From assembly GCA_002633005.1 (NCBI GenBank), contig NMRA01000003.1:542696-606695 (forward strand): DNA of 64,000 nucleotides. The letters run 5' to 3'. This stretch comes from Phoronis australis (Eukaryota > Animalia > Phoronida). Position numbers and translations under genes: made by a program. Below the pieces are notes generated by a model. That model searched no databases, was not told the DNA's origin, and worked only from the letters and a program-made list of their open reading frames with translations. Of this stretch, positions 5,515-48,700 are shown piece by piece (positions within the stretch are counted from its first letter, which is position 1; the number at the start of each line of letters is the position of its first letter).

Positions 5515-6935
5515 TTTTTATGCGCCCACATTTTATATGTGGACGCATTATGTCGTCATCTCCGTCCGTCCTGGCGGCGTCCGTCCGGCGTCCGCTGCTT
5601 TATCTCCAAAACCCTTTGACATACGTTCATGAAATTTGGCACATATGTTCCATTCATGAATGGGGCATGTGCGAACTTTCGGACGGATCCAACTACCGGT
5701 GTGCCCCCTAGTGGCAATTTTAGTTTTTTATGCTTACCTTTGTATCTTCAAAAACCCTGAACAGATTTTCATGAAATTTGGTATGTAGGCACCTATTAGT
5801 CAGATGACGCTATCCACCCGTTTTCAGATGGATTCGACATAGTTTGCGCCACCTAGTGGCCATTTTTAGTGTTTTCGAGTCTGTTTTTGTGCGTCCACCC
5901 CTCTATCAACCAAACCGCTCAAAGGATTATTGTGAAAATTGACATGTATGTGCTTACTATAAAGAGGACAGCTGACAATGATTTTCAGACGATTTGGACT
6001 ACTGTGATGCCTCCCAGTGGCAGTTTTGTTTTTTTGTGCCTATGGCTGTATCTCCTAAACCGTTCGCAGGATCTTTACGAAATTTAATAAGTGTATTTAT
6101 ATGATGTTAACAACAGACGACGACGACTTTTGGACGGATCCGCCTACCAGTGTGCCCCCTAGTGTCAATTTTATTAGTGCGATGACGCTATCCTCCCGTT
6201 TTCGGATGGATTCGACCCAGTTTGCGACACCCAGTGGCCATTTTTACTGTTTTTGAGTCTGTTTTTTTGGCGTTACTATCAACCAAACTGCTCTAAGTAT
6301 GATTGTGGAAATTGGCTTTTATGTTCTTACTATGAAGAGGACGGTTGACGCTGAATTTCCCAGGACTTTGATTACTGTGGCGCCTCCTAGTGGCAGTTTT
6401 TTTTTTGCACCCATGGCTCTATCTCCCAAACCGTTTGCAGGATCTTTACTAAATTTAGCAGGTGTATTTATGTGATGTTGACAACGGACGATGACGACTT
6501 TAGGATGATTCTGACTACCGGTATGCCTCTAGTGGCAATTTTAGTATTTTACATTGACCTCTGTATTTTCATAGGTCTTCAGGTGTATACTTTGTGTTAC
6601 TTCGTGACTGTGAAGGAAAAGTTCCAAGTAGAAATTTGTTTCTGGCATTCTAATGCTGTGCTAATCTCGTATGTTGGTAAATTTGTTTTTAATTCTATGT
6701 TTCTGTGGTGCTTTAAGCAACTGATGTATAGGATGTGCTTGTATTATGAAGATCACTCACATTTTGCCCCTAGCCTATTGAGGAGACAATGACCATGCCT
6801 TTCCGTTTTGCAAAGTACAACATACTACATATATGCCCTCTACTGGCCACTTTGTGGTATCAATAAACAACCCTAGAAGGATACCGTATACGGTGCAATT
6901 GTGGGCGCATTTCAACGCTCTGCGTTGCTCTTGTT
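5515..6935 (+). mobile_element. Non-autonomous Helentron/DINE-1-like element (HINE) with internal tandem repeats
   Basis: T-run, then sub-TIR ATGCGCCCAC (5520-5529), a nearby inverted copy GTGGACGCAT (5539-5548), a GTCC-type microsatellite (~5560-5594) and internal repeats. At the 3' end: sub-TIR GTGGGCGCAT (6901-6910), hairpin CAACGC-TCT-GCGTTG (6913-6927) and CTTG-TT. This is the canonical HINE layout. Confidence 0.85.
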
Positions 6936-8989
6936 ATAAGTGCGACACCTTTTAGCAGGATTGATAACTAACAGATAACCTAGCCAGAGTGAAGTTGGTT
7001 CGATACAGAATGTTTTTCTGTGTTCACGTATTTTAGCATGCCAATGATATTAGTTATCTTATTACCTTGAATTCCACTTGGTTGAAACAGTTTTTGTCTC
7101 TGAGACGACACATGTCTGCCTTACACACGAGCCGAAGTCGTGTCCGCGAGAAGTCAAGTGTTTTCGAGGATGTCATTTGTCTGAGAATACGCACTCGTGT
7201 TTTTCTAAAGAAGTCTTTAAGAGGCACTCTTTTATATGTTTACTGTTTTTAACTAAAGAGTTTCCCTAATGTGCCACACAGTATCTTGAATACAGTTAGC
7301 CAATTTTGGGGTCTTCTGACACACGCGTGATCATTGTAGTTACCACTGCTGCCGATAGGTGTCACAGTTTTGTAATGGTATTCACCCGAGATCTGCTTAC
7401 TAGCAAGTGAACACCTCTGTGAATGCATGATTAAGGAGAGAAATACTTTTTTATAATCACCATGATCACCATGGCAAGAGGATTCAGAAAATAGTAAAAT
7501 CAAGTATGCACGTTAATAGAGTCAGATTATAAACAATAACCCCGAACGGATGTCTGTGCCAAACTGATTTAGCACACTTCAATTTGGCGCCAGTTGGTGA
7601 GCCAGTCCGATGCCTGCACTGCACCAATCTGAATCTACTTAAGTGCCCAAACTACAGCCAGTGGTTTATTTATGGTTTTTTAACGGTTATCATAACTGAA
7701 ATTGACGGCATTGACTGCTCACAAATACAGGTCATATGGGGAAAGTGTCCTGAGAGGCGCCACACTGTAGCTTCAGCTTGGTGCCGGCAACAGTTATGCT
7801 CAGTTGCCAAAATCGGGAACTGGCCATTTTTAACACTGCACACGTTCCTGGCGTGCGCAGTAAAAATAAAAGTGATGGTTTTGACATCCTTAAAATTGCG
7901 ATCGTAATTCATGCTTGTACAATGTAATTTCATGGTGGCACTTTCTACCCAGTGGCCATCAATAGTAGACAGACTAGCAGATGAAGGGTTTTGACTCTTT
8001 TAAATGTTATTCTAATGAAGTGTATCAATATTACTAAAAATATTAAAGAAATGCCACACAACTTTGTGTCCATCTCATTTTTATAAAGGTTGTTCCAGTT
8101 CTTAGTAGTCTTAGTAGCATCAATTCCCTTTTCCTACTACTAGCATCTACACTTTAGTTTTTTGAGACAATAAAAGCAACTTGAGAATTCTGTACAACAA
8201 CAGTTGCCTGACACTTCACTTGACAGTCGTTTGTTAAGTGAAAATTCTTGTTAGTAATAAGACATAGCGTCTACTTATCAAGTTTGAAGACTTGTGGGCA
8301 AATGGAGAACTTTATGTGTTGGTTAAGACCAACATTCTTTGACAAACTTCTGAAGTGTTTACCATTATTTGACATCAGTTGAAATTGAAACGTTCTTATG
8401 TAATGTTGCAACAGCTTCATCCAAAAGTGCAAACATTGTTTCCCTTATTGTTTTCTTGTTTAACATAATAGTTATACTTGTAGCCATCTGCTTAAAACTG
8501 TATTTCCTCAATATTTAGCCCTCAAACTATGAATTAGGCCACTTAAGCTTATTAAATGGGTCTGTATCTTCCTGTGATTGAGCAGCCATGTAGCCTTATC
8601 CTTAATTGCTTGGAGTGAGTGCTTTACGGGTTATAAGATTCCAGTCACTTAAACACAGAAATAGTTATGTTGAATTTGCGACTAAATTTCTGTCTTGTCT
8701 CTAAGTGGGTTTTCATGAAACGGACCCCTGATTGACATAGTCTTGCATAGTGGTAATTTGTTTACTTTGAATTTCTTTAAAAAAACGCAAAATTTCATTT
8801 TTTTTGAATAATTTACGGAATTAGGCGATACCATGAGTTTAGATAGAATTTTGAATGGGCTTTCAGAAGATGTTTTCCATTTTTCGCTAGGACGTCTACT
8901 TTTCGAGTTATTTGAGATTTTCCGATAACGCTGTTCCTTTGTTGAGCGCTCTTGCTGCATTGATGTTGGTTTATCTTCTATTGAACTAG

Positions 8990-9330: not shown

Positions 9331-10399
9331 TTCGCTCCTCGGAGCGCTTTCAGTTTATTGTTTGCAATAAAAATGATATTAGCGTGTTCCCTTTGGAAAA
9401 AATGTGTATTGATAATTGTTTTTTTGAACTGACGGAGAGAAAGATATTACACAAAAACGAGGTGAGCAATTTGCACCTTCATTCATTTCATATGAGAGAA
9501 CCTTGGGAATGCTTCGCATCCGTTTTCTCAAGGCTAAGGTTGTATGTGATAAACACGCAGTTTAAAATGTGTCAGACTCGAGAGCTTGTGGCTTTCAGTG
9601 AAATCCAAGATGACAATATATAATTCTTTGCTTTGGTGTATGTTACGTGCTGTCTGCTCATATTAGATTAGAAGATTTCCTCCGCAGCCAGAATGTTCCT
9701 ATGGCTGTGACATCACCACAAGAACATGCATCTTGTCGTGGAGCCAAAATTTTGTGTGAAAATGGATGTCAAAATTTTGCCTGCTGGAAAACGCCTGTAC
9801 TCTATCCAGTCCTCTAGTTAGTGAATTGTGTTGCTCTGTCAGAGTTTTTTGTTTTGTTTATTTTTTGTTCCCATATGTTCTATGATCAACATGAAATTTA
9901 CCATCTCATGCTAACTGTGACGCCCCTTTGGCCCTTGTTGCAATTTTGTTTTTGCCTGCACCTCAATATCTACCATGTGGCTTGATGGATCTTCATGAAA
10001 TTTTGTTTTTGTGATTCAATTCATGAATGTAGGCCTGACATTGACTTGCCAAGTACTGTGGCATCCCTTAGTGGCAATTTAGTTTTTTGTGTGTGACTCT
10101 ATATTTACCAATTTCCTTGATAGATCTATCCAACATACAGCAAGATGGCAGCATTTGCCTTGTTTCAGACAGTTTTGACTTGTAATAATACACCCCCTAG
10201 TGGCTATTTTATTTTGTATATTGCACAATACTAATAAAAAACCTATAAACACACTGCATTGCTCTTGCCCACTATACTTGTATGTGAAATTCAAGATGGT
10301 TGCTGTCAAGTTGACAATGCTGTTTTTCACGAAGGATTGTCTTAGGTGAACTAGTAGCCAATGGCTAGGTCATTTTAACGGATTTTCCTTAAATTATAG

Positions 10400-11293
10400 T
10401 CGCTCGCCGAAGTCACTAATGCTACAAAAGATCACAATTCTGCTGTGGCATTCCTACGACAGAAAAAGGTACTACGACGGGAGCCTCCAAGATGCACGCA
10501 GCGACATGGCCGACAGATGACAGAAGTGAAGAGTGGACAGTCAGCAATGTGGCGATGTCCTAGGCACAAAAATGTGAAACTTTCCTTACGTCATGGCTCC
10601 TTCTTTGCGGATTCAAGTTTGAGACTTGAAGTATTGATACACCTTGTATGGGCTTGGGCATGCGAGCTGACTGTGGAGAATGCAGCTAAATTGACGGGCA
10701 CGTGTCGGACGTCTGTGATGACTTGGTTTGATTTCATGCGTTGTGTGTGCAATTGGTGGCTGGTCAATAATCCATTCGGCCAACTTGGCGGTCCAGGTAT
10801 TATTGTTCAAATTGAAAAACCTGTAATTGTTCGACGGAAATATCACCGTGGTCGCCGAGTTGCTGAGAAATGGGTTTTCGGTGCATATTGCACAAGGCAG
10901 CGTGTGTTACGACTCGTGCAAATTAACAGTCGTTCAGCGGTGACACTTTTAGGCATCATACGCAAATGGATCGCGCCAGGATCCATCATATGCAGTGACT
11001 CGTTTGCCAGCTACAAAGGTTTGGCTAATGTTCCAGTTAACCCCCCGTATATCCATCGAACAGTGGACAGTTCTGGAAAGTTTTTGGATCCGGTCTCTGG
11101 GGCAACTGTCAACGGTGTGGTACGATTCTGGAGTAATTCCAACCGTCGTCTAAGAATTATGTCCTTGTTTAATGATGCCCAGTTGCAGAAACATCTTGAT
11201 GAATCTATGTGGCGCCAACAACATGGTTGCAGTCCCAGTGAAGCATTTCACAATGTTCTGCACCACATCTCACAATGGTACGAGACACCTTAG
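10400..11293 (+). CDS. Merlin/IS1595 (ISXO2-like) transposase-derived coding exon, 297 aa, catalytic residues substituted; probable domesticated terminal exon
   Basis: Family motifs: zinc-ribbon-like C..H/C..H, SLRHGSFFADS, GGPG..VQI, RRKYHRGR...WVFG, RSAVTLL..I..WI.PGS.I.SD...Y, Y.H.TV, F.DP..GA. The frame is open back to 10400, directly after the acceptor TTTTCCTTAAATTATAG. There is no in-frame ATG before the first Cys. Confidence 0.88.
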   Translation, partial: SLAEVTNATKDHNSAVAFLRQKKVLRREPPRCTQRHGRQMTEVKSGQSAMWRCPRHKNVKLSLRHGSFFADSSLRLEVLIHLVWAWACELTVENAAKLTGTCRTSVMTWFDFMRCVCNWWLVNNPFGQLGGPGIIVQIEKPVIVRRKYHRGRRVAEKWVFGAYCTRQRVLRLVQINSRSAVTLLGIIRKWIAPGSIICSDSFASYKGLANVPVNPPYIHRTVDSSGKFLDPVSGATVNGVVRFWSNSNRRLRIMSLFNDAQLQKHLDESMWRQQHGCSPSEAFHNVLHHISQWYETP

Positions 11294-13559
11294 AAATACC
11301 TTTTAAGGGCTGCTGCAATTCCCCAAAAGTCAGTTTATGTGGAAATATGTAATATCATACAGATCATGATATATTACATACCTTCATATAATTTACTTTA
11401 GTGTCAGAGAAAATTCAGCTCAGAAAAATGTTTTGTAGTTAAAAAGACCTATGATCAAGTTTTAGTCTATGTATCTCTAATCAAATCGTGCTGTGAACTG
11501 TACTTATTGTAACCGGCAGTATGTTCAAAGACTTTGTTAAGTTTTTCTGGTAGTATATCTTAATTAAGGTGAGAACTGTGAGATTACAGGTGTTTTCACT
11601 ATGATAGTTGTTAGAATTGAGCCTTTGAACTGCTTACATTGTTTATAGATAATGCTTTGATATATTTGAGTTGAGTGACCTGTTATGTTGACAATCTCTC
11701 TGTTGCAGTTCAACTGTAACACAACAAACTTGGTTGTTAGTTCACTTATCATGTTATATTCTGCATGCCCTAGTAGTCAACTGTACTAGTATAGAAACTA
11801 TGTATAGCATAGAAGTCCTATTTTCTTTAGATTTAAGTTAGTTTGATATGAGTATAGTAAAGTGCCATCCACAAACAGACTTACCCTAGAACAAGTTATT
11901 CCTTGAAGAAGTTGTCCCTAGGTTTGAGTGCTGTCTGGACGCTTTTTAATGTAGTGCAACTTATGCCACTTGTGACAACTTAGTAGACATTATTGAGGTG
12001 GCATAATTTGTTCTGGGGTTGCTTGCGCCACTTGCAATCGTTATCTGGCCACAGAAGTGGGATAGGGCAGAAGTAATTATCACCTGCGGTTACCTACAGA
12101 CATGTATTCTCTTGCACACCGTATTGGCACCATGTTCATTGTTACGCACAGAGCGACGACTTCCGCCTATCACTAGTTATCGGATATGTGTGTTTTTTGT
12201 GTGCACACTCCATTTAAAAGTGGGGTAAGTTTCACTAGTGCAAGTTGTACTGGGGTTGGCTGTGTGTGGACAAGACTTTAGTTTCTGTTTTGGTCTTGGA
12301 GCTGCAAGAACTGTTGCCCATGGACATGGTCATGGTTCATGTGCTCTGATAATCTTTTAAATAATTGTCAAACCGCAGTGCCATCACCACCAAGTTGGGC
12401 GTGTGCCAAGGTTTTCTTAAATTTGAACATTCATTCAAGATACGACTGTTCAAAACTTAGCCCGTTGTGTGCTATGTCACACTCCTTAAACGTTGTCTCT
12501 TATATCAATAGGTATTAGGTAACAAAGTCAGAGATCTGGTACTAATGCTGAAAAACGATCAGAAAAAATAAAATTCTTATCTGAAGTGGCAAGGGTGTCC
12601 AAAATCAGTGAGGTTTTATCATACTTCTCACTTCCTATGCCATGAATTCAAAAACTTTCTGGTAATGTTTAAAATGCTACTTCATAAAAAATGTTGTTTT
12701 GAGGTGTTGTATCTCTTTTTTGTAAGATATTCAAAACTTTGAATTAAATTTTATTTTATACAAGTTGTTGTTGTTTTCTATTGAAAATTGTCATTTTTGA
12801 AGGACTCTTACATTTACATGCTAGGTTTGTTTTCATTTTATCTGTCAATCAAAACAAACGCCACACAAAAATTTCTCCAACTATGCAAAGCATTATTGTT
12901 TATCAGACCTTTCTCTTTAAGTGAGTGAGCTGTGTGTAGAATAGTTTCAACGTTTTGGGCTTTTTATTTTTTGTTCCTTTGTCGATTTTCTTGTCGGAAT
13001 GGTCGAGGTTCACGTGTCGAAAGTGTTGAGGGCCTTGCAACCAGGCGTGAAGCCACGTGGATTATAAAACCCTTCATAAGTTCGCTAAAATTTATAAATT
13101 GCTGCAACTTCTATTAAGTTCTGATATTTGTCACATAGCTTTCGAAACCATAATTATGTTTAGTTCCATATCTGATTTAGATAATGTTATGCAAGTAGAG
13201 TGTAATTGACCTGTTATTCTTGCAATATTTTAGTCTTTCTGATATTTCAGTGTTCAAGCCCAAGGACATATTTTAACCAAATATCAGATGCACAACACAC
13301 CAAGCCAAACACCGTATAAAAGATTATATAGAAAAGACAGTTAAAATCACCATTTTTTAAGGTTATGTAGACCGCTAGAAAAATGTCTAAATTTGGCTGA
13401 TTTTGGAACAGAAATAGCTGATCAGATTCGTATTTAACTTTCCATGACTGCGTTATGGACTGTTCTCCAGTATGCTGTTACGTATTCCTTTTAAAGTGCT
13501 CTACTTCTACTTGAGTGGTTGTTCTAAATTAGGAATCTTGGGATTTTCTTTAAAAAATT

Positions 13560-15031: not shown

Positions 15032-15274
15032 GACTTTGAAGATGAAACTGTCACCGAAAGGTTAATTGGTTTAACGGAGATGTTCCCGGAGTGGCTTCGT
15101 CATGGTGTCTCCGTGCTTACTAGCTATACCATTTATGGAACAAAGAGTGCCTTGCACTACAGTAAGGCTGGTCTATGGGTGGCAGCTTCCTCAGCCACCA
15201 TCATGTTACTGCCGGTTATGTTTGAGTCTGAGCGGTCCCAAATGGAAGAGCAGCAACTTCAGCAACAGAGACAG
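15032..15274 (+). CDS. TOMM22: Mitochondrial import receptor subunit TOM22, internal exon (phase 0/0)
   Basis: DFEDETVTERLIGLTEMFPEW...LWVAASSATIMLLPVMFESERSQMEEQQLQQQRQ matches the Tom22 signature (DETLSERLWGLTEMFP...LPVVFETEK.QMEQQQ). Acceptor TTGTTGCAG, donor CAG|GTTGGT. Confidence 0.95.
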
Positions 15275-16569: not shown

Positions 16570-16674
16570 ATTTTACTGGGTCCTAATGCTGCTGTGTCTG
16601 GCAGCCACATGCCAGGAATGCCAGGAGTTGGCCATGGGATGATGCCTATCCCTTTACCACCCCAGCAGGCGTAG
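16570..16674 (+). CDS. TOMM22: TOM22 last coding exon
   Basis: Acceptor TCTTGTAG, then ILLGPNAAVSGSHMPGMPGVGHGMMPIPLPPQQA*. ILLGPN is the conserved metazoan Tom22 continuation after QQRQ. AATAAA at 17186-17191. Confidence 0.93.
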   Translation: MLLGPNAAVSGSHMPGMPGVGHGMMPIPLPPQQA

Positions 16675-35482: not shown

Positions 35483-36646
35483 CTAATATTTGACAACTTC
35501 CATGTTTATCTGAGTCAGCCCTGCTGGATGCTGTTCTAGGTAAAACACTTTGGAATTGGTACTGGTCGCTACATTACTGAAATCGGTAGCACTCGTACAT
35601 CTGTACTTGGACGATTTCGGAGTCAATAGCGTTACTTCGCTAGTTTTACAACACAATAACAAACTGCGAAGTTCATTTCTGAATCGTTCTCCGGAAAGGC
35701 AATAAAGAAAAAAATTACAACTGTGATTCATAAACACAAAGACGCTCAGAACTTGATTGACGAACACGTATGTGACATAATTGCTGAGGTCGTATGGATT
35801 GGGCGAGAACATGCCTGTGGAATAAGCTATGTACACTATGCCAAGTGGAACCATACAAATCAGGAACATCGCTGAGATTGTCAGCAACATGAGGGTTAAT
35901 TGAAAATGGGTTGAATCGCGTTTTTGAGTCATTCTTTTTTGAATCTTTTTGGACTTTCTGAAGTGGAAAATGATAAGAACGTTTAGAGCACACAGTATCA
36001 TTGATGGACAGAACGCATAGAACGACATGTCTATCCAGGAATAAATCACCATCAGCGTGGGGTAGTTGACCACGTCTCTCTTGCACTGGCTTATTTTTTC
36101 ATTAATTTCCGGTGTAGCCAACCAAAACACCGGCAAATCGAGCACAACGCAGAACAATGTCAAACATACTATCGTGACAACAGCTCGCTTCGGCGTACAC
36201 AAGTTTTGGGCCTTAAAAGGCAGTGCTATGGCAATGTACCTCTCCACGGTCACCGTTACAATAAACAGGACTGATGCGTGACCGGCAAAGCTCTGGAGGA
36301 ATCCAATGAACCTGCACGACCATAAGTTAGTTAACACGTTAACGTGCAGGGTTGATCCGGCAACACTCATGGTGTTCATGTAGACAAATAGGGTGTCCGC
36401 TAATGCTAAGGCAGCGAAGTAAACACAGGAGGAATTCCGACGCATTTTCTTCCTCAGCATTACGGCAAATGATAGCGAATTGCCTATGGTGGCCACACCA
36501 CAAAACACGTAAGGGGCAATGCGAAATATCTCTAACGCGACAAAAAACAAAGAATAGTTCGCGAGAGAATCTTTGGGAGCGTTCGGTGCTCGGGTGGCAT
36601 TACTGTCAGTTGAGTAATTCTCGGCTCCAGCGGATACATTAGCCAT
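35483..36646 (-). CDS. Class A (rhodopsin-like) peptide GPCR, FMRFamide-receptor-like, 387 aa, intronless CDS
   Basis: Seven hydrophobic segments; GN in TM1, LALAD in TM2, Cys at the start of TM3, ERY, CMVP in TM6, and NHSCNFFLYCLSGERFR (family NxxNFxLY...FR). N-terminal N-glycosylation sequons. ATG at 36646 follows a splice acceptor at 36667, so the GTG start in the ORF track is intronic. A 5'UTR donor lies at 36775. Confidence 0.93.
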   Translation of the reverse strand: MANVSAGAENYSTDSNATRAPNAPKDSLANYSLFFVALEIFRIAPYVFCGVATIGNSLSFAVMLRKKMRRNSSCVYFAALALADTLFVYMNTMSVAGSTLHVNVLTNLWSCRFIGFLQSFAGHASVLFIVTVTVERYIAIALPFKAQNLCTPKRAVVTIVCLTLFCVVLDLPVFWLATPEINEKISQCKRDVVNYPTLMVIYSWIDMSFYAFCPSMILCALNVLIIFHFRKSKKIQKRMTQKRDSTHFQLTLMLLTISAMFLICMVPLGIVYIAYSTGMFSPNPYDLSNYVTYVFVNQVLSVFVFMNHSCNFFLYCLSGERFRNELRSLLLCCKTSEVTLLTPKSSKYRCTSATDFSNVATSTNSKVFYLEQHPAGLTQINMEVVKY

Positions 36647-39600
36647 GGTTGAGTAGCATGAAGTACCTGAAAATGTAAATTGACAAGGTGGAATCACTTA
36701 ATGAGTGCGAGAATAAAACTAAACGAACAAAAGTCGCTATTTTTCCTGGTATAATCAAATTTATGATTAACTCACCGTCGTCAAGAGATCTAAGGGGAGC
36801 GTGTACTTAAATGTCGATCTTCGAGGTGCACCTCACCGTCACATACGGCGCGTCTTGCCAGCCAGCTGCCCAAAACTGGGAACAACGTCTATGTTGACGT
36901 TGGTTGTTAGTTGAAATACAAATTTGCCCAATGTTCCAAGTCTCTTGTCCGATGTTTTCATCTGATGACAAGCGAATCAACGTTTGTGACTGGTGGTCAA
37001 ATCCCATTCGATTCCGTCAGTGTAAAATAAAGCCGCGGTCAAAAGCGAGAATCCATTCTGCATGCTTTTTCTTGTCCGTCATAGTATGCTACTATTAATA
37101 AGACAGTCAATGTTTTAAAGCTTAGTTCTATCGCAAGCTAAATATGTAGTGGAGATAAAATAAGTCTGAAGTATTTACTTACAGTTGAGGTTATGGAGAG
37201 TAGAAAGCGACTGTTTTTCTTTGATCTTAGTTGTGGAAACTTGTATTGCACGCTTTGATCGCTTCTAGAAACTTGGATCGTGCAAAAGGCATTTTATAAA
37301 TCCTCCGACTCAATTAAAACAGCTTGTCTAACCAATCAAACGTCCGACTTATTTGAAATTGTCACGACATCACGTAGTCAAATCTCAATTAAGGTAACAG
37401 TTGTTTTTCAATGGAATAGCATGATATCATGCGTATAAAGTACATAACATGGTTAAATTATAGCCACTTCATATTCGAAAAATAAAACTAATTGATTGGC
37501 AATTAAGTTTCCGTGAAAACATAACAGAGACCACTCATGGCCATCGTCAGTCCTGCGCGTTTTAAATGGAACTTGCAATTTCCAACTTTACGTGGATTGC
37601 ATGCCGAAGTAACATATCCTGCGGGCCCTATAATAATTCTGTGAAAATCGTTCAATTATCGATTCGTTTTATTGGCAGCTTAAAGTGACTAAAAACGCGT
37701 CATCCATCAAAAATGAGTCAGACCACTTTCCGTTATGAAATTAGCCTCAAGTTGTTTCTTAGTCAAATTGGGAGTGATTTCAGGACTTCAAAAGAACTGA
37801 CAACTCGTTATTGCTCGAGACCGAAGCTCTACAAGTTGGCTCGTCACGGCGAGTCATTTTGTGCGTCGAGCGTGGTCCTGGGGAACAAGAAACTGTACGT
37901 TCTTTAGAAAACCAGAAACCACTTCTCGTATAAGTAAAGAACAAGTCAAGAACAATTTTATAGCTGTAAGTCGTTGACTCGGAAATCAAAAGTTCTCTTA
38001 CTGGACGGAACGCGGATTTATAGCCCTTATATTTTTATACAAAACAAATAATTACCGTGAATTTGGCTTCAGCCCAGCCATTGTGACGGGTAATTCTGGA
38101 TCACGCATGTCGGAATACTTTTGTCTTGTTGTTCAGTTTGGGTGAAAACATAGAGTAGACTCATGATCATCTTCCCTGTTTGTATGAAATAATGTCTGAC
38201 GACTATCGCCAAGAAGAGGATCTCTTCGTGGTATTACCCATTGATAGTGAAGTGGCAGTGATTTTGGACTTCCTTCACTTACTTGTAAACCCAGTCATAA
38301 CCAAATGCCATTTTAATGTAAATCATGTTCAATTTCCCATGTGGAATTGACCTCTATTAAGTAAATATCCTATTACAAGGTTCAGTAATTAAACAAGATA
38401 TAGACTAAAGAGATAGAGAACAAGACCAAGAAATTGATTTAAGCAATTTCAATAACAGGACAAAAACCAAAATTTAAAAATCCTTTCTTTACCAGTATTT
38501 TTATAACCACCTTGTTATTATTATTATTACCATTATAATTATTATATCACTGACTTACCCTGTACTACATGTGGATATATTAGTTGTCATGTAGCTGAAA
38601 TATACTTATAAAATAATAGTGCCAGTAACCACAAGAAAAAGTAATAGACATTACCATTAACATTATTGGCACATTATATAAATAAAAGAAAAATCCCAGT
38701 TTCCATCAACAAATTTCCTCCAGTAATCCCCCGGATCAAACCAAAATAAAACAGAAAGATGGCAATAAAAAGAAAGAAACATATACCATTACATAGAACC
38801 AATTTATTGTTTTTGCACAATAACTCACAAAGGTTTCGTAAAATCTTTTTAAAAATGAAAATGATATCTTGAAGAAACATTACATATGATACCACCAATT
38901 TACTTTGAACTGAACTTTACAAAATGAAGCACTATTAACACATTTTAACATTTTAGAAACATAAAAAGGCAAGATACCTGCAACTTTCAATATGTTGGCA
39001 TAGTTTCAGGTAGTCAATAGACTTTTTGTAAAATTACTGTAAAATGCAGCTCCTTGACTAACCAAAAGCAACTATACATTTGGAATGATATTCACAGTTT
39101 AGATGATAAAACTTCCGTTAAGTAATTAATAACATATACTATAGTATAAAATATATAAAACTGTTCATTAAGTACAGGGGAATGTTTAAAAAATGCAAAC
39201 AACAACTAAAATTGTACATCATTTCCAAAAAAAATTGAACTACTAATCTAATGACACCTGTCATGGAACTGAACTCCAAAAAACAGTGTTTCAACGTAAG
39301 AATTTTAATTATTTGATTTCGTTGTGTTAAAATCATATATACAGTGACACCCGTGTACTTGTATAAGTCAACATCCAGATTGTAAGCTAAACAATCACAA
39401 ATAAACTGAATGTACAATGGCACAAGATTGTATTTATAAAGGTTGGTTTAAGTTAGAATATTACACAATATTGAAATTTTCCTCAACCTACGCAATTAGA
39501 ACTGGTCAACAAAACTACAAGTACTAAATGGAAACAGAATGCAACTGATTCAGCGCCACAGCTATTAACAATTTTTCATTCCTCTGTTGGAATAAAAATA

Positions 39601-39750: not shown

Positions 39751-42700
39751 TTAATATTCACCAGCAGCACCATTCACTTGACCTGCAGTTGAGTAGAAAG
39801 TTTCTTGGGTGCGAGTTTCAGTTATTGTTTGACTGTGGCTTCCTCTGCAAAATCAAGATTATAAGCCTCTTGTAAAACATAAGGCAACAGAGATAAACAA
39901 GACAAATTAAGTCCAATAACAACTGGTAATGAAAAATATTTATTTTAATCAGTCATAATAGTTGGTTTCCTTTAAATAAAACAACAAATCACAACTTATT
40001 TTTGCAAAAACCACCTTCAGCGAAGAACAGAATATGAGGGAAAAGCATTTCCATTTAAGTCAACATAAGCGTCTGTGATTGTATTTGTCTGGTCTTGAGA
40101 ACTAAAGCCCGTGCATTAAGTTCCCATGGTGAGTTTCTTGGACATACGAAACACAGGCCTGGTGTTTTCGCAGGTGAGATTTAACTGTAGTGAAATTGGT
40201 TGCATTAAAAAAAGTATAGCAGTGCCATAGACAAAATGCTCCGTAATTCAAATGATTGTGTTTAACTCACCCTGTATAAGCTGGATTTACTGCGCTTGTT
40301 TCCAATCGACTTGTCGTGTATCCTGACGACTGGTGACCACCTCCACTTCCTGCCACCTCATCAGCGGTAAAGGTAAGATTGACCTCTCCTACATCATGCA
40401 CCTGTTCATCCGGCGGAACAAACATGTTCAAGCTCTGCGTTTCGTAGTTGCGTACATAGGGATCGAAGAACATCGCCTCCCCATTGAAGGCACTGACGTA
40501 GAATTTATTGTATCGTTCATGATACCTCTTGTACCTAAAAAGCAAGTCATTGGATTTAATGAGTTGTGAAACGGAAAGTTAAGACACAAAGGACATCCAT
40601 CATATACACCTTATTCACGCAGTTGCTAGTTTAGAAGTGAGCCTCTTTTTAGGTTTAAAAGTAATGCATTTGAAACATAAATTTAACGAGGCACGCGAAA
40701 AAATCACACTTTGCGATGTGATTAAGTGCAGATTGCATTGTTTTAAAAATCTAAAAAGAGGCTCACTTTTAAAATGTAAGGGGTATACAACAAAATATTG
40801 ATCAAAACGTTTCACCTGCACACAACTGACTCCGACACAACACGAGTGTGATGGCACTATCATCCCAAACAGACCAACGTTACAACTTACAAACTCCTCC
40901 AGCAAAACATTCATTATTTCATAACTGAATACTGTTCTCTATCCAGACACATGTTCTCTATCCAGACACATACCTGGCCCATGCAAAGCAAATGATGATT
41001 ATTCCGATAACAGCCAACAGGAAGATGATTCCAGCCAATGCCAGTAGCCAAATCCAAGTGTTTCCCAGAAGCAGGTAGGTCTTGCGCGTAACAAGAGCGC
41101 CAGTTTTCCCAGAAAGCTCATAAGGACCACGGATACGGACCATCGAGAGCATAGAGACCAAGTTGAACCTGACTTTGTCCTGGGAGTTGTTATCCATGAG
41201 TACCCTGAAAGACACAACACACAGACAATGAGCACTACCCACAGCGAAAATAGAATCATTCTAACTGTTGTTACACAAAAAGTTCATCCAAATTTGTTCC
41301 ACAAGCCTTTTATCTGTAAATCACACAGAAGTTAAGCGTTAATTTTAAAAACATTCACTTTGGGACCAATATCATCGAATCCTATAAATAATACACCTTA
41401 CATCAAATTACTGTTATTTGTTGTAAAAAGGTGTTGCTTCACTTACGTTTCCAAATCAGCTCTTGCACAGATGAGGTCAGCATCTTTATCCGTGTCTACA
41501 TTGCCCTGTTTAACGGCAACAAACCAGACATCTGTACCCGTCACATCCTCCTGCACGTTAGAAACAGATCCATCCTTCCTCGTGTCAATCTTTTCTATCA
41601 AGATCACCTTGTTCGTGTAAGTCTGCATTTTCCTAAAAAGAAAATTCGAAATGCTTTTATTAAGTTCATACTCATAGGCTTCTATTATTGATTTGTTAAT
41701 TGTAAGTTTGACCAAAGAATAGTAATCTTGTCAGAATTAAACCGAGATTTTACAACATGCAACACACTTTAAGTGACCACGCCATCACTGATTAACGAGA
41801 ACCTATCTTTTCACCTATATAAAAAATTAATTTTAAAAGAAGTGCAACCATCGATGACTTAATACATCCTAGACTATGATGGTCAATACCTGCAGCAGAA
41901 AACAAAACTACATTTTAGGTTGTGATGCAGTCTCTGTGACAAATTAAAGATTAATCACTATCAATCCTTGAGGTTACACTATACAATGCACAGTACTTAC
42001 TGCCTCCACTCTTCTTTGACTTTGTTAAACTGGGCTGGTGTCATGTCCTTGATAACCATGATCATGCGATGGGCATTGTCTATCAGGTTGACAATCACCT
42101 CGGCATTAGTAGTCATTATTGACTCTGGTGGCACTGCCATGTCATAGGCCGTCACGTCAAACCGATAATGAATTGCAGGGCTAGGGTCTGTTGGTCCGAA
42201 AGTGTCAGTGGTAGTGAGAATGCCAGTCACAGGCGCAATGGCAAATGGTGGGTTACGTGGCATAGCCTCCTCTTCATTCCCCATTCTATAACGCACTTCA
42301 CCGTTCTCTTTGCTGTCTATGTCTGTTGCCTATAACAAAAGACAAGTACTGAAGATGCTTTTAAGGTTACAAAATTCAAATCACACTTGGTTGATTCGGA
42401 ATGTTCCGATTATCATAGGCAGATCTGATGTCTGCCCCAACAATGCATCAGAGTGACGTTTTCTTCGTTGGGATCTTTTCTATATAATCACATGAGAATC
42501 TAAACCCAGACCAACCCAGGTAGTACTACAGTGTCTCTAGCCGTGTAAACTCACCTTAATGAATGTTGGTGATCCCGTATGAGCACTGGTGGGTACAGAC
42601 TGCCCCACCAGGGTCTCCCTAGGGATGGCGGCGTAGTACTTGTTGGCCGTGTCTCCAGTTTTGCCCTGGTCTGGATAGACAGGGAACTCGAACTTTGGAG

Positions 42701-45700
42701 CGTTATCATTCACATCCACAATGTTCACAATGATGTTGTAGTAGGGATACGATATGGCGTATGCAGCTGGAACCAATAAATGAATGAACTTAGGAAATGA
42801 TGTATGGAATGAAAATGTAAACTGCTAGAGACAACAGTACATAAAATACATGGTGGGTGAGTTTTCATGCAATAGTTATTTAAATTGCTGGAAAAGAAGT
42901 CCGGAGAAGAAGTCAGTGATCTATGGTTTTTAACCTACTAGTTAGTTTGTAGGAATTAAATCATTCCAGCAAAATTTTGGCATTCTCATTCGCATGGCTA
43001 ATGAGGCGTGAATTCAAGAAATCGTAAATAAATATATCAATCAGCTCAGTATGGCGGGCTCTCTGAACAGTGAATAGGTCTAGAAGTGGCAAGTATTCAG
43101 GAGAGTGACTGCTAGTGTCCAGTACGGTCCTACCTCTCTTAGTGCGGGGTGCAATCAGCGCCACAGAGATATTCAGGTTGTACACTGTCTTCAGTTCATA
43201 ATCAATGTCACCTTCCACCTTGAGTTCACAGTCTTTTCCATCCGTAGTCACATCCAACCTAAAGTCGCCTGAAAACATAAAAAACAAAATATGCCAGCCT
43301 TTGAATCTCTTTGGACTTGAGTCTGTATAGTTTTATGTATCATTCTTAAACTATGAAGGCTTAATGGCTTAAATGCACTGTACGGTCAACTAAAAGTGGA
43401 TCAAAGTTTCAGGTTAAATGATTATGTCTTGTCATTGGCTGTATACCTGGACACCAGGTGCACATGTAGCAAACTTGAGAGAGTTTGCATCAGGTAAGTC
43501 ACCAGACAACATTGCATGGAAGAAATTCTCTTGCCAAGATACTCTAATCTTAATTGAATGAAGATTCCTGTTTTTATGATTTATGGCAACATTACGCAAT
43601 TAGAAGATTTTAAGATGATATCTATGCTAAATAAACCTAAAAGTTCCTTTAAGCAAGATGGTTTTCCATCAACAAAATGGACAAAACCATTAAACAGTGA
43701 TAAAAGTGTCCAAGATGTTGCTCTTGCTGATGGATAAACAAAGAAAATATAGTATTCAACCAATGCTTTGGCTCCCCTTACCATCTTCATTGCCACTGAT
43801 AAAAGTACAGGAAACCTGTCTAGTAAGAGGTTGGTTGACAACGTCAATGAACTGGACCAGAGTGTCCTTTGCTGTGTTCTCCTTCAGGTAAACACTGAAA
43901 AGGTGAGAGATAAACATGCAGCAGAACAAGCGATGGACCAAAGCATGTAGGTGTGGATGATGACCATTGACGGTGTCATTCACATAGTGTAAGTCAAGTC
44001 CATGCAAAGGAGATTGTATATTGATATGCATAAGCTGTTCATGGTGATGCAGGAAAGTTTTCACTTATATGTACTGTAGCACAAAGCTATGAATTGTCAA
44101 TAGACCAAGACCATATATAACGTAAGGTGTTGGATATTTATGTGTGTGTCATAGACCAACTCCACTATTAACCTAGCTGTTTAATAATTATGTAAGACAG
44201 TGTTCGTGTAAGTGGGACTTTTGTGAACTCAATTCACAAGTGAGCTACATGACAACCTGTGAGAGTTCCATTTATCAAGTCTTACATCACACTCTACATT
44301 ACCATTGCCTTGCAGCTGACTGAAAAAAACTGATGTGTGTGGTCACATCAACGTAGCGAATAGTGGAAAGACGGAAGCTGGGCATGTAGTCATCAAATGG
44401 TAGATCAGTTGAAGATGAACTTCTGATTTCCCACAATTCAATTTTCAAATAATGGATGGGTCATAAAAAAGTCACTGTGTTGTACTAGTCCATGTGAGAG
44501 ACTTACACGTCAGTGTTCCTGATGAAGCCCAGGGAGCCAGCAGGGAGGTCGTCTATCTGGTCAACAATGACGATAACCTGAGCTGTGGCAGTCTTAGGTT
44601 TCTCTGCCATGTCGGTAGCAATGACATTGAACTGAAAAACAACAAACAGTTCTATTCAACCCTTCTACAGAAATCCAGCAGCAATGACAAAGTAAGTGAC
44701 ACAAGTTTGACTACAAACAAGCAATAGAGACAGGTCAGACAACAGTTTGATGAACATCATAAATAGACATCTAAAGGCAACGTTATAGTCACACAACAGT
44801 GTGATGAACATCATAAATAGGCATCGCAAGGTAAGGTTATAGTCAAACAACATTGTGATGAACATCTCATATAGAAACCTGAGTTGATACATGGAACCTT
44901 TATGTTTTTAAGTCCACTATCACTACTTGTAGAAATGGTAGATTATTTTTGAAATTTAACTTACATTAAACAAACTGTGAGTGCATGTGAATCCCTAGAA
45001 TATATTGATGCATTAAATAGCACCCATTGCTGGACTCACCGTAAACCTAGTAGTATCCTCAGGATCATTCGTAAGCAGACGTTTCAGAGAAATGTGTCCG
45101 AGTGCTGGGTTAATCTGGAAGTAATTGTTCACTTTGCCTTGTGAAGGGATGCTGTAGACAATCTTGGCATTAGGATACTGAAATATGGATAAAAACGTGT
45201 GTCACTAATTTATCTTAATATCAAACTTATTCAAAAATGGTGACGAAAACACTAAGCAGCTAGATAATAAATACCAATGGGTAAAAAGCAGGCAGACAAG
45301 ACCAACATGGCTGCCAGAGGAAATTTCAGATGCTCTCTCAAGAAGTTGCCAAACCAAGTAATTCTCAGGTTTCCTAAGGAAAAAAGCGTCTCAGCTAAAT
45401 TTAAATAGTGACATGTCACCCTACACGTAAATCTTGACGATGACCCTAATAAAGCTACTGTTCCAGGATGATGCATCAGTGTCAAAGTCGTCCCACTAAC
45501 ATGTGTGACTAATGTAAAATGTGAGAATCAACAGAAAAGGAAGAAAGGCATTCATTCAAACTCAGACTGTCACAACTTGCAATTCTTCTCAAGTGTCATT
45601 GCACTCTTTGGGGTTAATAAGATCACTCTTATAAGCTTTGTCATACACTTGTCAAGTCGCCCCTACTGTTGCTCAGGCAGGTTACACAATAGAGGTTCAA

Positions 45701-48700
45701 TTATATCAGTAAAGGAACAGCAGTTACAGTGCACGTTACTTCTCTTGTCTTCAGCTCTGATAGATTTTTGACTCTCAAAAAGTTAAGAAGTCTAATTTTT
45801 AATGACATTTTTTTTTCAGGTTTCAAACGTCAATGACAGATTAGGTATAATAGTCCACAGTGTCTAAAATGAGAAAAACTGGAACCACGGACAGGCATTG
45901 CTTATCACTGACATCCGTCTCTGTTATCTAATCTCCATTGTAAATCCAATCAGTAAGTGAACATTTTTGGCTGAATATTTCATATTTTTATTTTGTTCTA
46001 GCATGAATATTTACAGGTTAAATGAAACAATAAATGATAATACACAGTACATACAGATTATTTACAATAAATAATAACTAACACAAGAACCACATTTTGC
46101 TCAAGATGTAACTAAAAAAGTTCACGAAAATTTTGGAAATTGAGATTATTTAGCAAATGTTTGAGCAAATATCAATTTTTTTCTAATATGATCAACAGGT
46201 TTATGTTACAGTTTTCCCACTGAAGCACTCAAAGTTGCTGGTTGGGAAATGCAATGTAGTGTACAATTTTGACTGCAAAACACATATGTTGTGTGTGTAC
46301 TGTGCAATTTAAGACTGTCATAGTTATATCACATCTTTGTGACAAGAAACGCCCTCAAATTTGAAGAAAGATAATGATACGTGAAATATAGGAGAATAAA
46401 CCGACGATGGTTCAAGATGTCCTAAAAAAGTCACATTATGCCCTTTGAAAAGACACATTTTATTTTCAGACTCAAACTTACCCCAGCTTGCTTAGCAGCA
46501 TCTCCATCAGTGGCGGTGACATTGAGGAATGTGATTCCAAAGTTGAGACTCTCAGAGATCTTGACCGTGTACACTTTAGGATTGAACACAGGCCCATGTT
46601 CATTCCTCAGCACGCGTATCGTAACCTTGCTAGTATTGGACTTAGATGGGGTCCCTTGGTCGGTGGCTATCACTTGCAACTATGAAGAGTACAAATTGGC
46701 AAATATTAACATATGTTTTGAACCTTAATAATGATAGTTGTTGGTATGAAAGTGAATGCTTGTCAGTAGAAGTCAAATGAAATGCTTTAATTTGTAAAAT
46801 CAGTAAACTGGAATTGCCCATGGTAAGCTCAGTTTCACAGCCAAACAGACCCAAAATTGACAGGGACCCTGCGCAGGCTATCAATATGTTAACGTGTGCA
46901 ATCTTAACTTCTGAAAGTGGCATTTTCTAGTAATTCTAATACAACTCCTTTTAGATGGACCTCTAGCACTTTTGGCTCCTGATGCCTGTATCACATAGTT
47001 TTTTGCCACAAAGACTTCAGAATAAATGTGATGTTATAAAGAGCGTGCTGATATGGTATAAGTAACAATTATTAGTCTCCAGCACATGCCAAGCTGGTGA
47101 CATTCCGGGCTCTGAACCCCCCCTCCCCCTGCTCACAGACATCTTCATATACTTAAATATAGGTCACGTGATATGACCAACATATGACGTGCAAAGGACT
47201 AATAATTCAACTCATGCTTCACAATTAAAACATGTCTCATGACATGGGCCCAGGGTGTATGGTGAGATCATACGAAGAAGCAGTGACTTAACCTACGTAG
47301 TAAAAGTCTGGTTGCGGCGTCTGGTCATCTTCATATGGCGGAGTTCTCACACGAACAGTGCCTGAGAAACGGTCTATGTAGAAATAGCGACTAGCAGTGG
47401 GTGATCTCGGTGTACTGCTCAGTGAGTAGACGATTGTGCCGCTGAGTTTCTGTTGCAACAGAATAAGACAAAGCACTTAAATTAAACTTAGGAATATATT
47501 AATTCTGGCCATAAGGCATTTCTTTACCTTATAAGCACGCACTCAAGTTTCATGTGTCTACACGTGATGCTGCACCTATATATTACTGTATTAGGTGCAG
47601 CGCATGCGTCTGTATGCAAAACACTTGCATAAAACAAAGGAGCATAATTTGTCTAATCCACAGCAAAACAATTCAACTTTATTCTAACTAAAAGAAAATG
47701 CAAAATATTTTGTCAAAATTTTGCGTCAAAGCTATCTATGTCACTTCAAAACTGCTAACTTAACCTTTTTCAATATTTACAATTTGTATTTCAGTTTTAT
47801 AAATAAACAGAAACCTGACAATGCTAAACTAAAATGAATGGCATAAAAATAAGTCTGCCTGTGAAATGATAATAATATGCCATTGAAACAGACGAAATCA
47901 ACTACAAATAGAAAGTCTACTAGCAAAATAATCTGATAAAACTAAACATTCAACACAAAGAGCAGACACCCTAGAACATTGCCAAATAGTCTAACTGATG
48001 GATTAAATGAGGAACTTACATCTGAACCATCAGCATCTGTTGCTAGAGTTTGTACAACTGAAGACCCAGCTGCCTTGTGCTCAGGTATAGTGGCTTGGTA
48101 CTCAGGCAGAGAGAACACAGGTGTGTTGGGGTTACGGATCACCTTAATGTTAACTGTTGCTCGGTCAGAACTCTGCGGATTTCCGTTGTCAGTGGCTTGA
48201 ACATTCAACTGGTGGAAAAGGTGAGAAAGGGATATTCACAGACAATGAAAAGCGTGACAAAGAACCACAATACACACCACTGTATCATGTACTATTTTCA
48301 TAAAAATCATCTTTATTGAATACATGAAAGTGTTTTCGATTGGAAGTTTTCATACATACTCTTTGTAACTCATGGTATATTTGTAGATCCTTGAGAAAAC
48401 AACATTATACTGGTGATCTGCTGTATAGTTGTTCTCTAAAGTACCAACAAATACATCGAAAGTTGCAAAGGGTATGCATGAAAGCTTCCAACCGTCAAAT
48501 TATTCAACAAATAGTATCTGCGTATAGAAGCAAATCAAACCATAGGTGATGAAATTAATTGTAAACACGACTTTGGGCAATACGTAGTCTGTGAACTTGG
48601 CCACTCCAGGTAGAGTGTCAATGAATACAAGAAGACTGACCCAGAAGTAGTAGTAATAATAATAATAATAACAATAATAATAATAACAATAATAATAATA

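What the first reader, a model, noticed from the sequence alone, without database searches (positions are those of the whole stretch)
10380..11293. Catalytically dead but intact Merlin/IS1595 transposase built as a spliced exon: candidate domesticated gene
Seen: a stop-free 297-codon frame, while the other TE coding remnants recognised in this window are decayed. It begins exactly at a polypyrimidine-TAG acceptor (exon starts 10400, phase 0), has no ATG before its zinc-ribbon region, and I found no flanking TIRs or TSD. Known: Merlin/ISXO2 transposases use VxIDE(S), SD and TNxxExxW as the DDE triad and carry a TVNH motif. Here these read VQIEKP, SD, VNGVVRFW and TVDS, so two of three catalytic residues are changed. 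The Zn-ligand-like C/H residues, the HTH region and RKYHRGR/WVFG are retained. Inference: loss of catalysis with a preserved frame and DNA-binding parts points to a host-co-opted DNA-binding protein. I know of few domestication cases for Merlin in animals.
Basis: partly seen in the sequence, partly recalled or inferred. Interest (0 to 1): 0.85.

Follow-up and report, generated by a model that had tools for sequence, protein, structure and literature searches.

The report
Dead Merlin transposase spliced into TOMM22
An intact transposon enzyme gene that has lost its cutting residues is transcribed and spliced in frame to an upstream exon, likely the first exon of the mitochondrial import gene TOMM22, so it would give a minor fusion protein that the animal probably keeps as a DNA-binding protein.

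Summary
10400-11293 is a whole, stop-free Merlin/IS1595 transposase frame (Pfam E 4e-10) that starts at a splice acceptor where relatives have their Met. RNA from 3 of 3 raw-read runs covers it, sense strand only, and 3 reads in one run splice into 10400. The upstream exon lies outside the window. Its end is open only in the transposase frame and resembles the end of TOMM22's first coding exon. The ORF lies upstream of TOMM22's next exon, so it is likely an alternative last exon (about 2-6% of TOMM22 depth), built like CSB-PGBD3. Changes hit the active site (8 of 11 conserved positions) and spare the rest (3 of 30), which neutral decay rarely gives. No convincing TIR or TSD. 12 of 17 members of its Merlin clade also lack catalytic residues. 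Not shown: orthologues, dN/dS, genomic copy number, protein, or the direct identity of the upstream exon. The scan earlier noted a dead IS1595-type domain in another gene (insect Row) on other DNA. Verdict: probable host-transposase fusion, new variant of a known kind.

The parts
10370..10399 (+). 3' splice site (short pyrimidine tract, TAG), used in RNA; it lies where relatives carry the start codon
   Evidence: 3 X1 reads with a loose end at 10398; P0106 begins M-S-L at this position; context
10400..11293 (+). Merlin/IS1595 transposase-derived coding exon, 297 aa plus stop, whole length of the enzyme minus its Met
   Evidence: AlphaFold pLDDT 95.7; DDE integrase/transposase folds as best matches
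10493..10567 (+). Zinc-ribbon-like segment C32/H36...C53/H56 (ligand role inferred)
   Evidence: C32 and C53 conserved in 97% and 94% of relatives; H56 nearly invariant in the clade
10625..10768 (+). Three-helix bundle (residues 76-123), likely helix-turn-helix DNA-binding part, with W86, W109, R114, C117 kept
   Evidence: Secondary structure; conservation; HTH role inferred
10814..11143 (+). RNase H-like core with altered active site: E139, K140, D200 (kept), D223, S224, V237, V241, N248
11294..11576 (+). Transcribed 3' untranslated stretch; its end is not mapped and no AATAAA/ATTAAA lies in 11290-12400
   Evidence: Depth 1-2.5 in X1 and X2; motif scan
15032..15274 (+). TOMM22 internal exon (phase 0 acceptor, contains the predicted membrane helix); likely the competing splice target
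   Evidence: Pfam Tom22 E 1.9e-9, profile positions 52-126 of 141; depth; hydropathy
16570..16674 (+). TOMM22 last coding exon
   Evidence: Translates ILLGPNAAVSG... to a stop, as in homologues

Best explanation
A Merlin transposase gene that has lost its catalytic residues is spliced in frame to an upstream exon that is likely TOMM22's first coding exon, so it probably acts as an alternative last exon giving a minor, likely soluble fusion protein that the host likely keeps as a non-cutting DNA-binding protein. Steps: (1) a Merlin element inserted in sense into the long TOMM22 intron (inferred); (2) an acceptor at the old start-codon position captures a few per cent of transcripts (splicing shown, share rough); (3) TOMM22 supplies a housekeeping promoter, the start codon and a short acidic N-terminal tail, while the membrane helix in the next exon is left out (inferred); (4) selection removed cutting activity and kept the zinc ribbon, helical bundle and fold (pattern shown, cause inferred); (5) the basic protein (pI 10.3) would enter the nucleus and bind Merlin-end-like DNA as a transposon repressor or gene regulator (untested).
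For:: 56 reads in X1-X3, all with first mate on '-', the same sense as the TOMM22 exon; 53 of 56 at 99% identity or better, no variants listed; depth starts at the acceptor. 3 X1 reads carry the same loose end; X3 depth in that bin equals exactly 2 such reads. The loose end is absent from the window, is open only in the transposase frame, and gives LASKKSVEDE before the junction; a snail TOMM22 has SKKAIEEDDE at the matching place, and 13 of 1500 random 10-mers scored as well against 40 homologues. The TOMM22 exon acceptor is also phase 0, and the X4 contig also aligns from the AG before it. No strand-specific deep exon and no N gap lie between the ORF and 15032, and tblastn with 81 TOMM22 proteins found no upstream exon in the window. 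Active-site positions changed 8 of 11, others 3 of 30 (Fisher p 2e-4); in a neutral-decay simulation 1.2% of 1500 runs stayed stop-free. A DDE-intact clade relative has 74-nt, 96% TIRs starting GG; nothing like that flanks the ORF.
Against: The junction is listed for one run and 3 reads only. The junction upstream of TOMM22 exon 15032 was not printed, so the shared exon is inferred; the ungapped profile test was weak (p 0.064, score below the lower quartile of true TOMM22 sequences). The isoform is minor (6.1, 4.4, 1.5%), unlike CSB-PGBD3. No poly(A) hexamer was found and a consensus donor sits at 11568. No orthologue was found, and copy number is unknown. I drew the active-site blocks after seeing the alignment. 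No protein or DNA-binding data.
Confidence: 0.55

Rival explanations
1. The ORF is a recent copy of a mobile family, or of another domesticated copy, that already carried a dead transposase; it landed in the TOMM22 intron and the low-level splicing is a by-product with no host function.
For: Copy number cannot be counted. The isoform is 1.5-6%. 12 of 17 clade members lack catalytic residues, so dead but intact versions are common in this lineage. CpG is less depleted in the ORF (0.89) than in its flanks (0.52-0.64). Transposons often bring their own acceptor (10.1101/2020.05.07.082677, passages read).
Against: No TIR or TSD. No reads of a second copy at 88% identity or more, and none antisense. 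No second copy in the window. The splice is in frame.
Confidence: 0.22
2. The ORF is a domesticated exon, but the upstream exon belongs to another gene (or is a leader exon) that overlaps TOMM22's intron.
For: The upstream exon is not in the window; only 30 letters of it are seen; the ungapped TOMM22 profile match is weak.
Against: It needs an interleaved gene structure. Phase, the AG end and the acidic K-S-V-E-D-E ending all fit TOMM22.
Confidence: 0.13
3. The exon is a poison cassette: it splices on from the donor at 11568 to TOMM22's next exon, and its stop codon sends the RNA to nonsense-mediated decay, tuning TOMM22 levels.
For: Consensus donor AG|GTGAG at 11568 and no poly(A) hexamer; low steady-state level.
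Against: The one X1 read that reaches 11568 runs on to about 11576 unspliced; partial reads in X1 and X3 are all accounted for at the acceptor. A poison exon would not need a 297-codon open frame with a preserved fold.
Confidence: 0.1

Closest known systems
CSB-PGBD3 (piggyBac transposase as alternative 3' terminal exon in ERCC6/CSB intron 5; PMC2268245, passages read)
   Same: Whole transposase in one exon inside a host intron, acceptor right before the ORF, in-frame fusion to an N-terminal host part that includes an acidic region, parental transcript kept, catalytic triad altered.
   Different: Merlin/IS1595, not piggyBac; invertebrate; host is a mitochondrial membrane receptor and gives only a short tail; minor isoform rather than equal; no TIR, TSD, own Met or AATAAA left; conservation across species not shown here.
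Tetrapod host-transposase fusion genes such as KRABINER and SETMAR (10.1101/2020.05.07.082677, passages read)
   Same: [quoted passage not shown]
   Different: The word Merlin does not occur in that paper's main text (0 hits; tables and supplements not seen); host parts there are mostly chromatin or repressor domains.
Merlin/IS1595 transposases (PF12762), including proposed domesticated copies in Stentor and Perkinsela (PMC8101967, passages and part 1 of section 10 read)
   Same: Same domain and full-length architecture; those copies also lack TIRs and TSDs.
   Different: DDE not intact here; expressed as a spliced exon with no start codon of its own; animal host.

Membership tests
Active Merlin/IS1595 transposon | DDE_Tnp_IS1595 domain | tested here: met
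   40.2 bits against cut-off 27; Atlas top hits ISXO2-like at 0.96-0.97
Active Merlin/IS1595 transposon | Intact D-D-E triad | tested here: not met
   E139, D200, V241; 99 of 142 relatives have D-D-E
Active Merlin/IS1595 transposon | TIRs starting GG | tested here: not met
   Best candidate 10368/13351 is 22 nt at 77%, near chance; relative L001 has 74 nt at 96%
Active Merlin/IS1595 transposon | 8-9 bp target-site duplication | tested here: not met
   1 of 8 and 4 of 8 matches beside the two candidate pairs
Active Merlin/IS1595 transposon | Multiple dispersed copies | not testable with these tools
   No genome held; one copy in the window
Host-transposase fusion gene (CSB-PGBD3 type) | Transposase exon spliced in frame to an upstream coding exon | tested here: met
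   3 junction reads; loose end open only in this frame
Host-transposase fusion gene (CSB-PGBD3 type) | Upstream exon belongs to the host gene whose intron holds the element | tested here: inconclusive
   TOMM22-like by gapped test (13 of 1500), weak by ungapped test (p 0.064), exon itself not seen
Host-transposase fusion gene (CSB-PGBD3 type) | Parental transcript coexists | tested here: met
   TOMM22 exon deeply covered in X1-X3 and on an X4 contig
Host-transposase fusion gene (CSB-PGBD3 type) | Terminal exon with polyadenylation site | tested here: inconclusive
   Coverage ends near 11525-11576; no AATAAA/ATTAAA; donor motif at 11568
Domesticated transposase gene | Orthologues at the same site with dN/dS below 1 | not testable with these tools
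   No animal genomes searchable; nearest full-length relatives 37-42% identical. Indirect sign of constraint only

The most novel reading that the evidence does not exclude
One Merlin lineage (marked by an insert reading P-V-x-P-P-Y) is a repeated source of catalytically dead host DNA-binding proteins across invertebrates, and in this animal TOMM22 has been recruited to express one, so that a nuclear regulator carrying the acidic receptor tail of the mitochondrial import gate is made from the same promoter as the gate itself.
Probability: 0.2. Interest if true: 0.8.

Novelty: new variant of a known kind. Interest (0 to 1): 0.6.

Why it matters
Host-transposase fusion is well documented in tetrapods, mostly with mariner, hAT and P/Kolobok and with chromatin host domains. 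A Merlin/IS1595 case in an invertebrate, using a mitochondrial import gene as promoter and start-codon donor, would extend the rule to another superfamily and another kind of host. It gives a direct test: one RT-PCR and one orthologue comparison. The clade-wide loss of catalysis points to an unstudied family of co-opted Merlin proteins, including an annotated sea-louse gene. I found no report of a TOMM22-transposase fusion (9 of 10 papers listed, none on this by title or abstract start; 0 papers) and one paper pairing 'Merlin transposase' with 'domesticated'.

Tried and rejected
No whole genome is held, so copies and synteny were not counted. No RNA holder was listed by index; runs were added by species label, and the X4 contigs do not cover the ORF, which is no evidence either way. 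Two searches for this species' own TOMM22 protein, to read its first exon, found only relatives at 65% identity or less. Scans for TOMM22's first exon inside the window found none. A TIR candidate at 10368/13351 was rejected: short, no TSD, unlike the long TIR of L001. A 9-nt word shared with the region upstream of L001's start is weak: 68 of 3000 random 60-mers do as well. The clade alignment was too divergent for a locus search; a 3-sequence alignment gave 80 loci, of which only L001 showed the clade's motif. P0103 and P0104 (8-12 repeated stretches) look like tandem or misassembled gene models and were left out. Grouping of the ORF with other dead members as orthologues was not supported: its place in the clade is open and the substitutions differ. 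Earlier scan notes by place and by sequence were empty.

Full report
Observation. Positions 10400-11293 hold a 297-codon frame ending in TAG. It matches Pfam DDE_Tnp_IS1595 above the curated cut-off. A search of 1.84 billion representatives gave 5514 hits at E up to 0.001; the nearest full-length relatives are about 300 aa and 37-42% identical, and align over the whole ORF. So the exon is an entire Merlin transposase without its first Met: P0106 starts M-S-L where the ORF starts S-L. The letters before it read ...aattatag; one extra base in an ATG would give this acceptor, which is a guess. The first in-frame Met is residue 40, inside the zinc ribbon, after three out-of-frame ATGs. The model is confident (pLDDT 95.7, pTM 0.91) and its best solved matches are DDE integrases and transposases, at modest scores (E 4e-5 and weaker).

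Catalytic state. I aligned 142 of the 150 listed hits (8 long ones dropped). 99 have D-D-E at positions 139, 200, 241. The ORF has E, D, V. Of 41 positions conserved in at least 80% of those 99 and in at least 3 of the 4 intact members of its own clade, 11 differ. Eight of 11 in the active-site blocks differ, against 3 of 30 elsewhere, and those three are conservative or an alignment shift (Fisher p 2e-4). I drew the blocks after seeing the alignment, so the p value is generous. Random mutation of the ORF until 11 tracked residues changed needed about 0.15 substitutions per site and left 1.2% of 1500 runs without a stop; with assumed frameshift rates the figure falls to 2e-4 or less. This is an indirect sign of selection on the fold with loss of the active site. 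It is not a dN/dS test, and it cannot say whether the selection acted at this site or on a source copy.

Element ends. Two GG-starting inverted pairs were found in the flanks, against 0-1 in 10 shuffles, neither with a target duplication; the better one is 22 nt at 77%. The nearest intact relative with DNA in hand (L001) has 74-nt arms at 96% that start GG. The window has one copy. Genome-wide copy number could not be counted.

Transcription and splicing. Three raw-read RNA runs of the same species label, about a fifth of each read, gave 27, 21 and 8 reads on 10230-11640. All have the first mate on the minus strand, as for the TOMM22 exon, so the RNA is sense. 53 of 56 are at least 99% identical and no variant is listed, which gives no sign of other expressed copies. 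Depth is zero upstream of the acceptor except about 5 letters of one X2 read, and unique intron bins are at or near zero. Three X1 reads share a loose end at 10398, where the last AG of the upstream exon matches the acceptor. X3's depth in that bin equals exactly two such reads, below the listing threshold. X4 has no contig here. Coverage ends at about 11525-11576.

Which gene supplies the upstream exon. The loose end is not in the window (best match 19 of 30). It has stops in two frames and is open in the transposase frame, reading LASKKSVEDE before the junction. TOMM22's exon at 15032-15274 covers profile positions 52-126 of Pfam Tom22, so an earlier coding exon must exist. Its acceptor is also phase 0, and the X4 TOMM22 contig also aligns from the AG before the exon. 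No deep strand-specific exon and no assembly gap lie between the ORF and 15032, and neither an exon scan nor tblastn with 81 TOMM22 proteins (27 of 42, Trichinella fused models dropped, and 54 of 54) found the missing exon in the window. Homologues carry an acidic run just before this intron position; a snail protein has SKKAIEEDDE-DLDEDESLSERL where the fusion reading plus the window exon would give SKKSVEDE-DFEDETVTERL. Against 40 homologues (45 of 81 had the anchor; 5 that read into the intron were dropped) a gapped test gave 13 of 1500 random peptides as good, while an ungapped profile was weak (p 0.064). I put the TOMM22 identity at about 80%. The junction before 15032 was not printed and no lay was left. 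The exon's depth is roughly 6.1, 4.4 and 1.5% of the two exons together (from bin means, two likeness settings).

Mechanism. The simplest reading is an exon trap that became a gene. TOMM22's first exon splices mostly to 15032 and sometimes to 10400. The minor product joins a short acidic tail to a basic (pI 10.3) transposase body. Tom22 has an N-terminal cytosolic domain with an acidic cluster (PMC5240110, start of abstract seen), and the predicted membrane helix is in the skipped exon, so the fusion would be soluble. With zinc ribbon and helical bundle kept and the active site changed, it would bind DNA without cutting. Repressing related elements or regulating genes near old Merlin ends are the usual fates of such proteins (from my own knowledge and the papers below); neither is tested here. 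The tail may serve only to supply a promoter and a start codon.

The clade. A quick tree of 111 rows (those of the 143 covering at least 220 positions; SH-aLRT only, careful search unfinished) puts the ORF in a 17-row clade with support 99. Twelve of the 17 lack at least one triad residue, 4 are intact, 1 is partial; outside it 13 of 94 do (p 2e-6). This is inflated by sampling: distant clades enter the top 150 only when well conserved, and one other 17-row group has 6 altered members. The altered members differ in their substitutions and mostly keep their own Met, so these look like separate losses. One is an annotated two-isoform gene of Lepeophtheirus salmonis and another was seen on 98 public contigs.

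Comparison with print. CSB-PGBD3 is the structural model: a transposase as alternative 3' terminal exon, acceptor just before the ORF (PMC2268245, passages). A tetrapod survey found 94 fusion events, born by alternative splicing, with no mention of Merlin in the main text (10.1101/2020.05.07.082677, passages; its tables and supplements, which I did not see, may list one). Merlin domestication was proposed for Stentor and Perkinsela, and possible chimeras were noted in Caenorhabditis (PMC8101967, passages and part of section 10; supplements not read). Searches for TOMM22 or Tom22 with transposase, transposon or Merlin found nothing on this (listings only). An earlier scan note describes a dead IS1595-type domain in insect Row; it is a different gene and I did not check it.

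Verdict. The feature is real, transcribed and spliced. It is not an active Merlin element. It works like CSB-PGBD3 and is probably a host-transposase fusion from TOMM22, but host identity is inferred and conservation is untested. Confidence 0.55, interest 0.6.

Noticed in passing
window 5520-6940: A 1.4-kb repeat with short inverted ends (5520-5529 / 6901-6910), a GTCC-type microsatellite, internal 145/228-bp units and a 3' hairpin, resembling non-autonomous Helentron/HINE elements (label recalled). Reads of its family reach depth about 2000 and are about 98% on one strand.
   Followed up: partly
window 5703, 5848, 6154, 6382, 10192, 21427: The repeat units carry a 12-bp word like the CTCF core motif (label recalled); decayed units also lie at 9930-10215, just upstream of the Merlin exon.
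   Followed up: partly
proteins P0171 and P0220: Two catalytically altered clade members that group together and both come from a contig of 13,648 bases, possibly a tandem pair of domesticated copies.
   Followed up: no
protein P0112 (LOC121129276) and P0105: Intact Merlin proteins lacking two triad residues: an annotated sea-louse gene and a protein seen on 98 contigs; both are candidate domesticated genes.
   Followed up: partly
L001 1-4271: A 4.3-kb DDE-intact Merlin element with 74-nt TIRs, AT-rich subterminal repeats and a TATA/initiator-like stretch before the start codon; it shares a 9-nt word with 10366-10374 of the window, at weak significance.
   Followed up: partly
window 10369: One X2 read appears to start about 31 nt before the main acceptor, right after another AG; unspliced read, minor acceptor or own start cannot be told apart.
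   Followed up: no
window 35483-36697 (-) and about 40000-60000 (-): A single-exon rhodopsin-type GPCR and a multi-exon cadherin-repeat gene.
   Followed up: no
window 52751-53125 and 54171-54545: The same 124-aa frame occurs twice, 1420 bases apart, with a single N between: a local duplication or assembly artefact.
   Followed up: no
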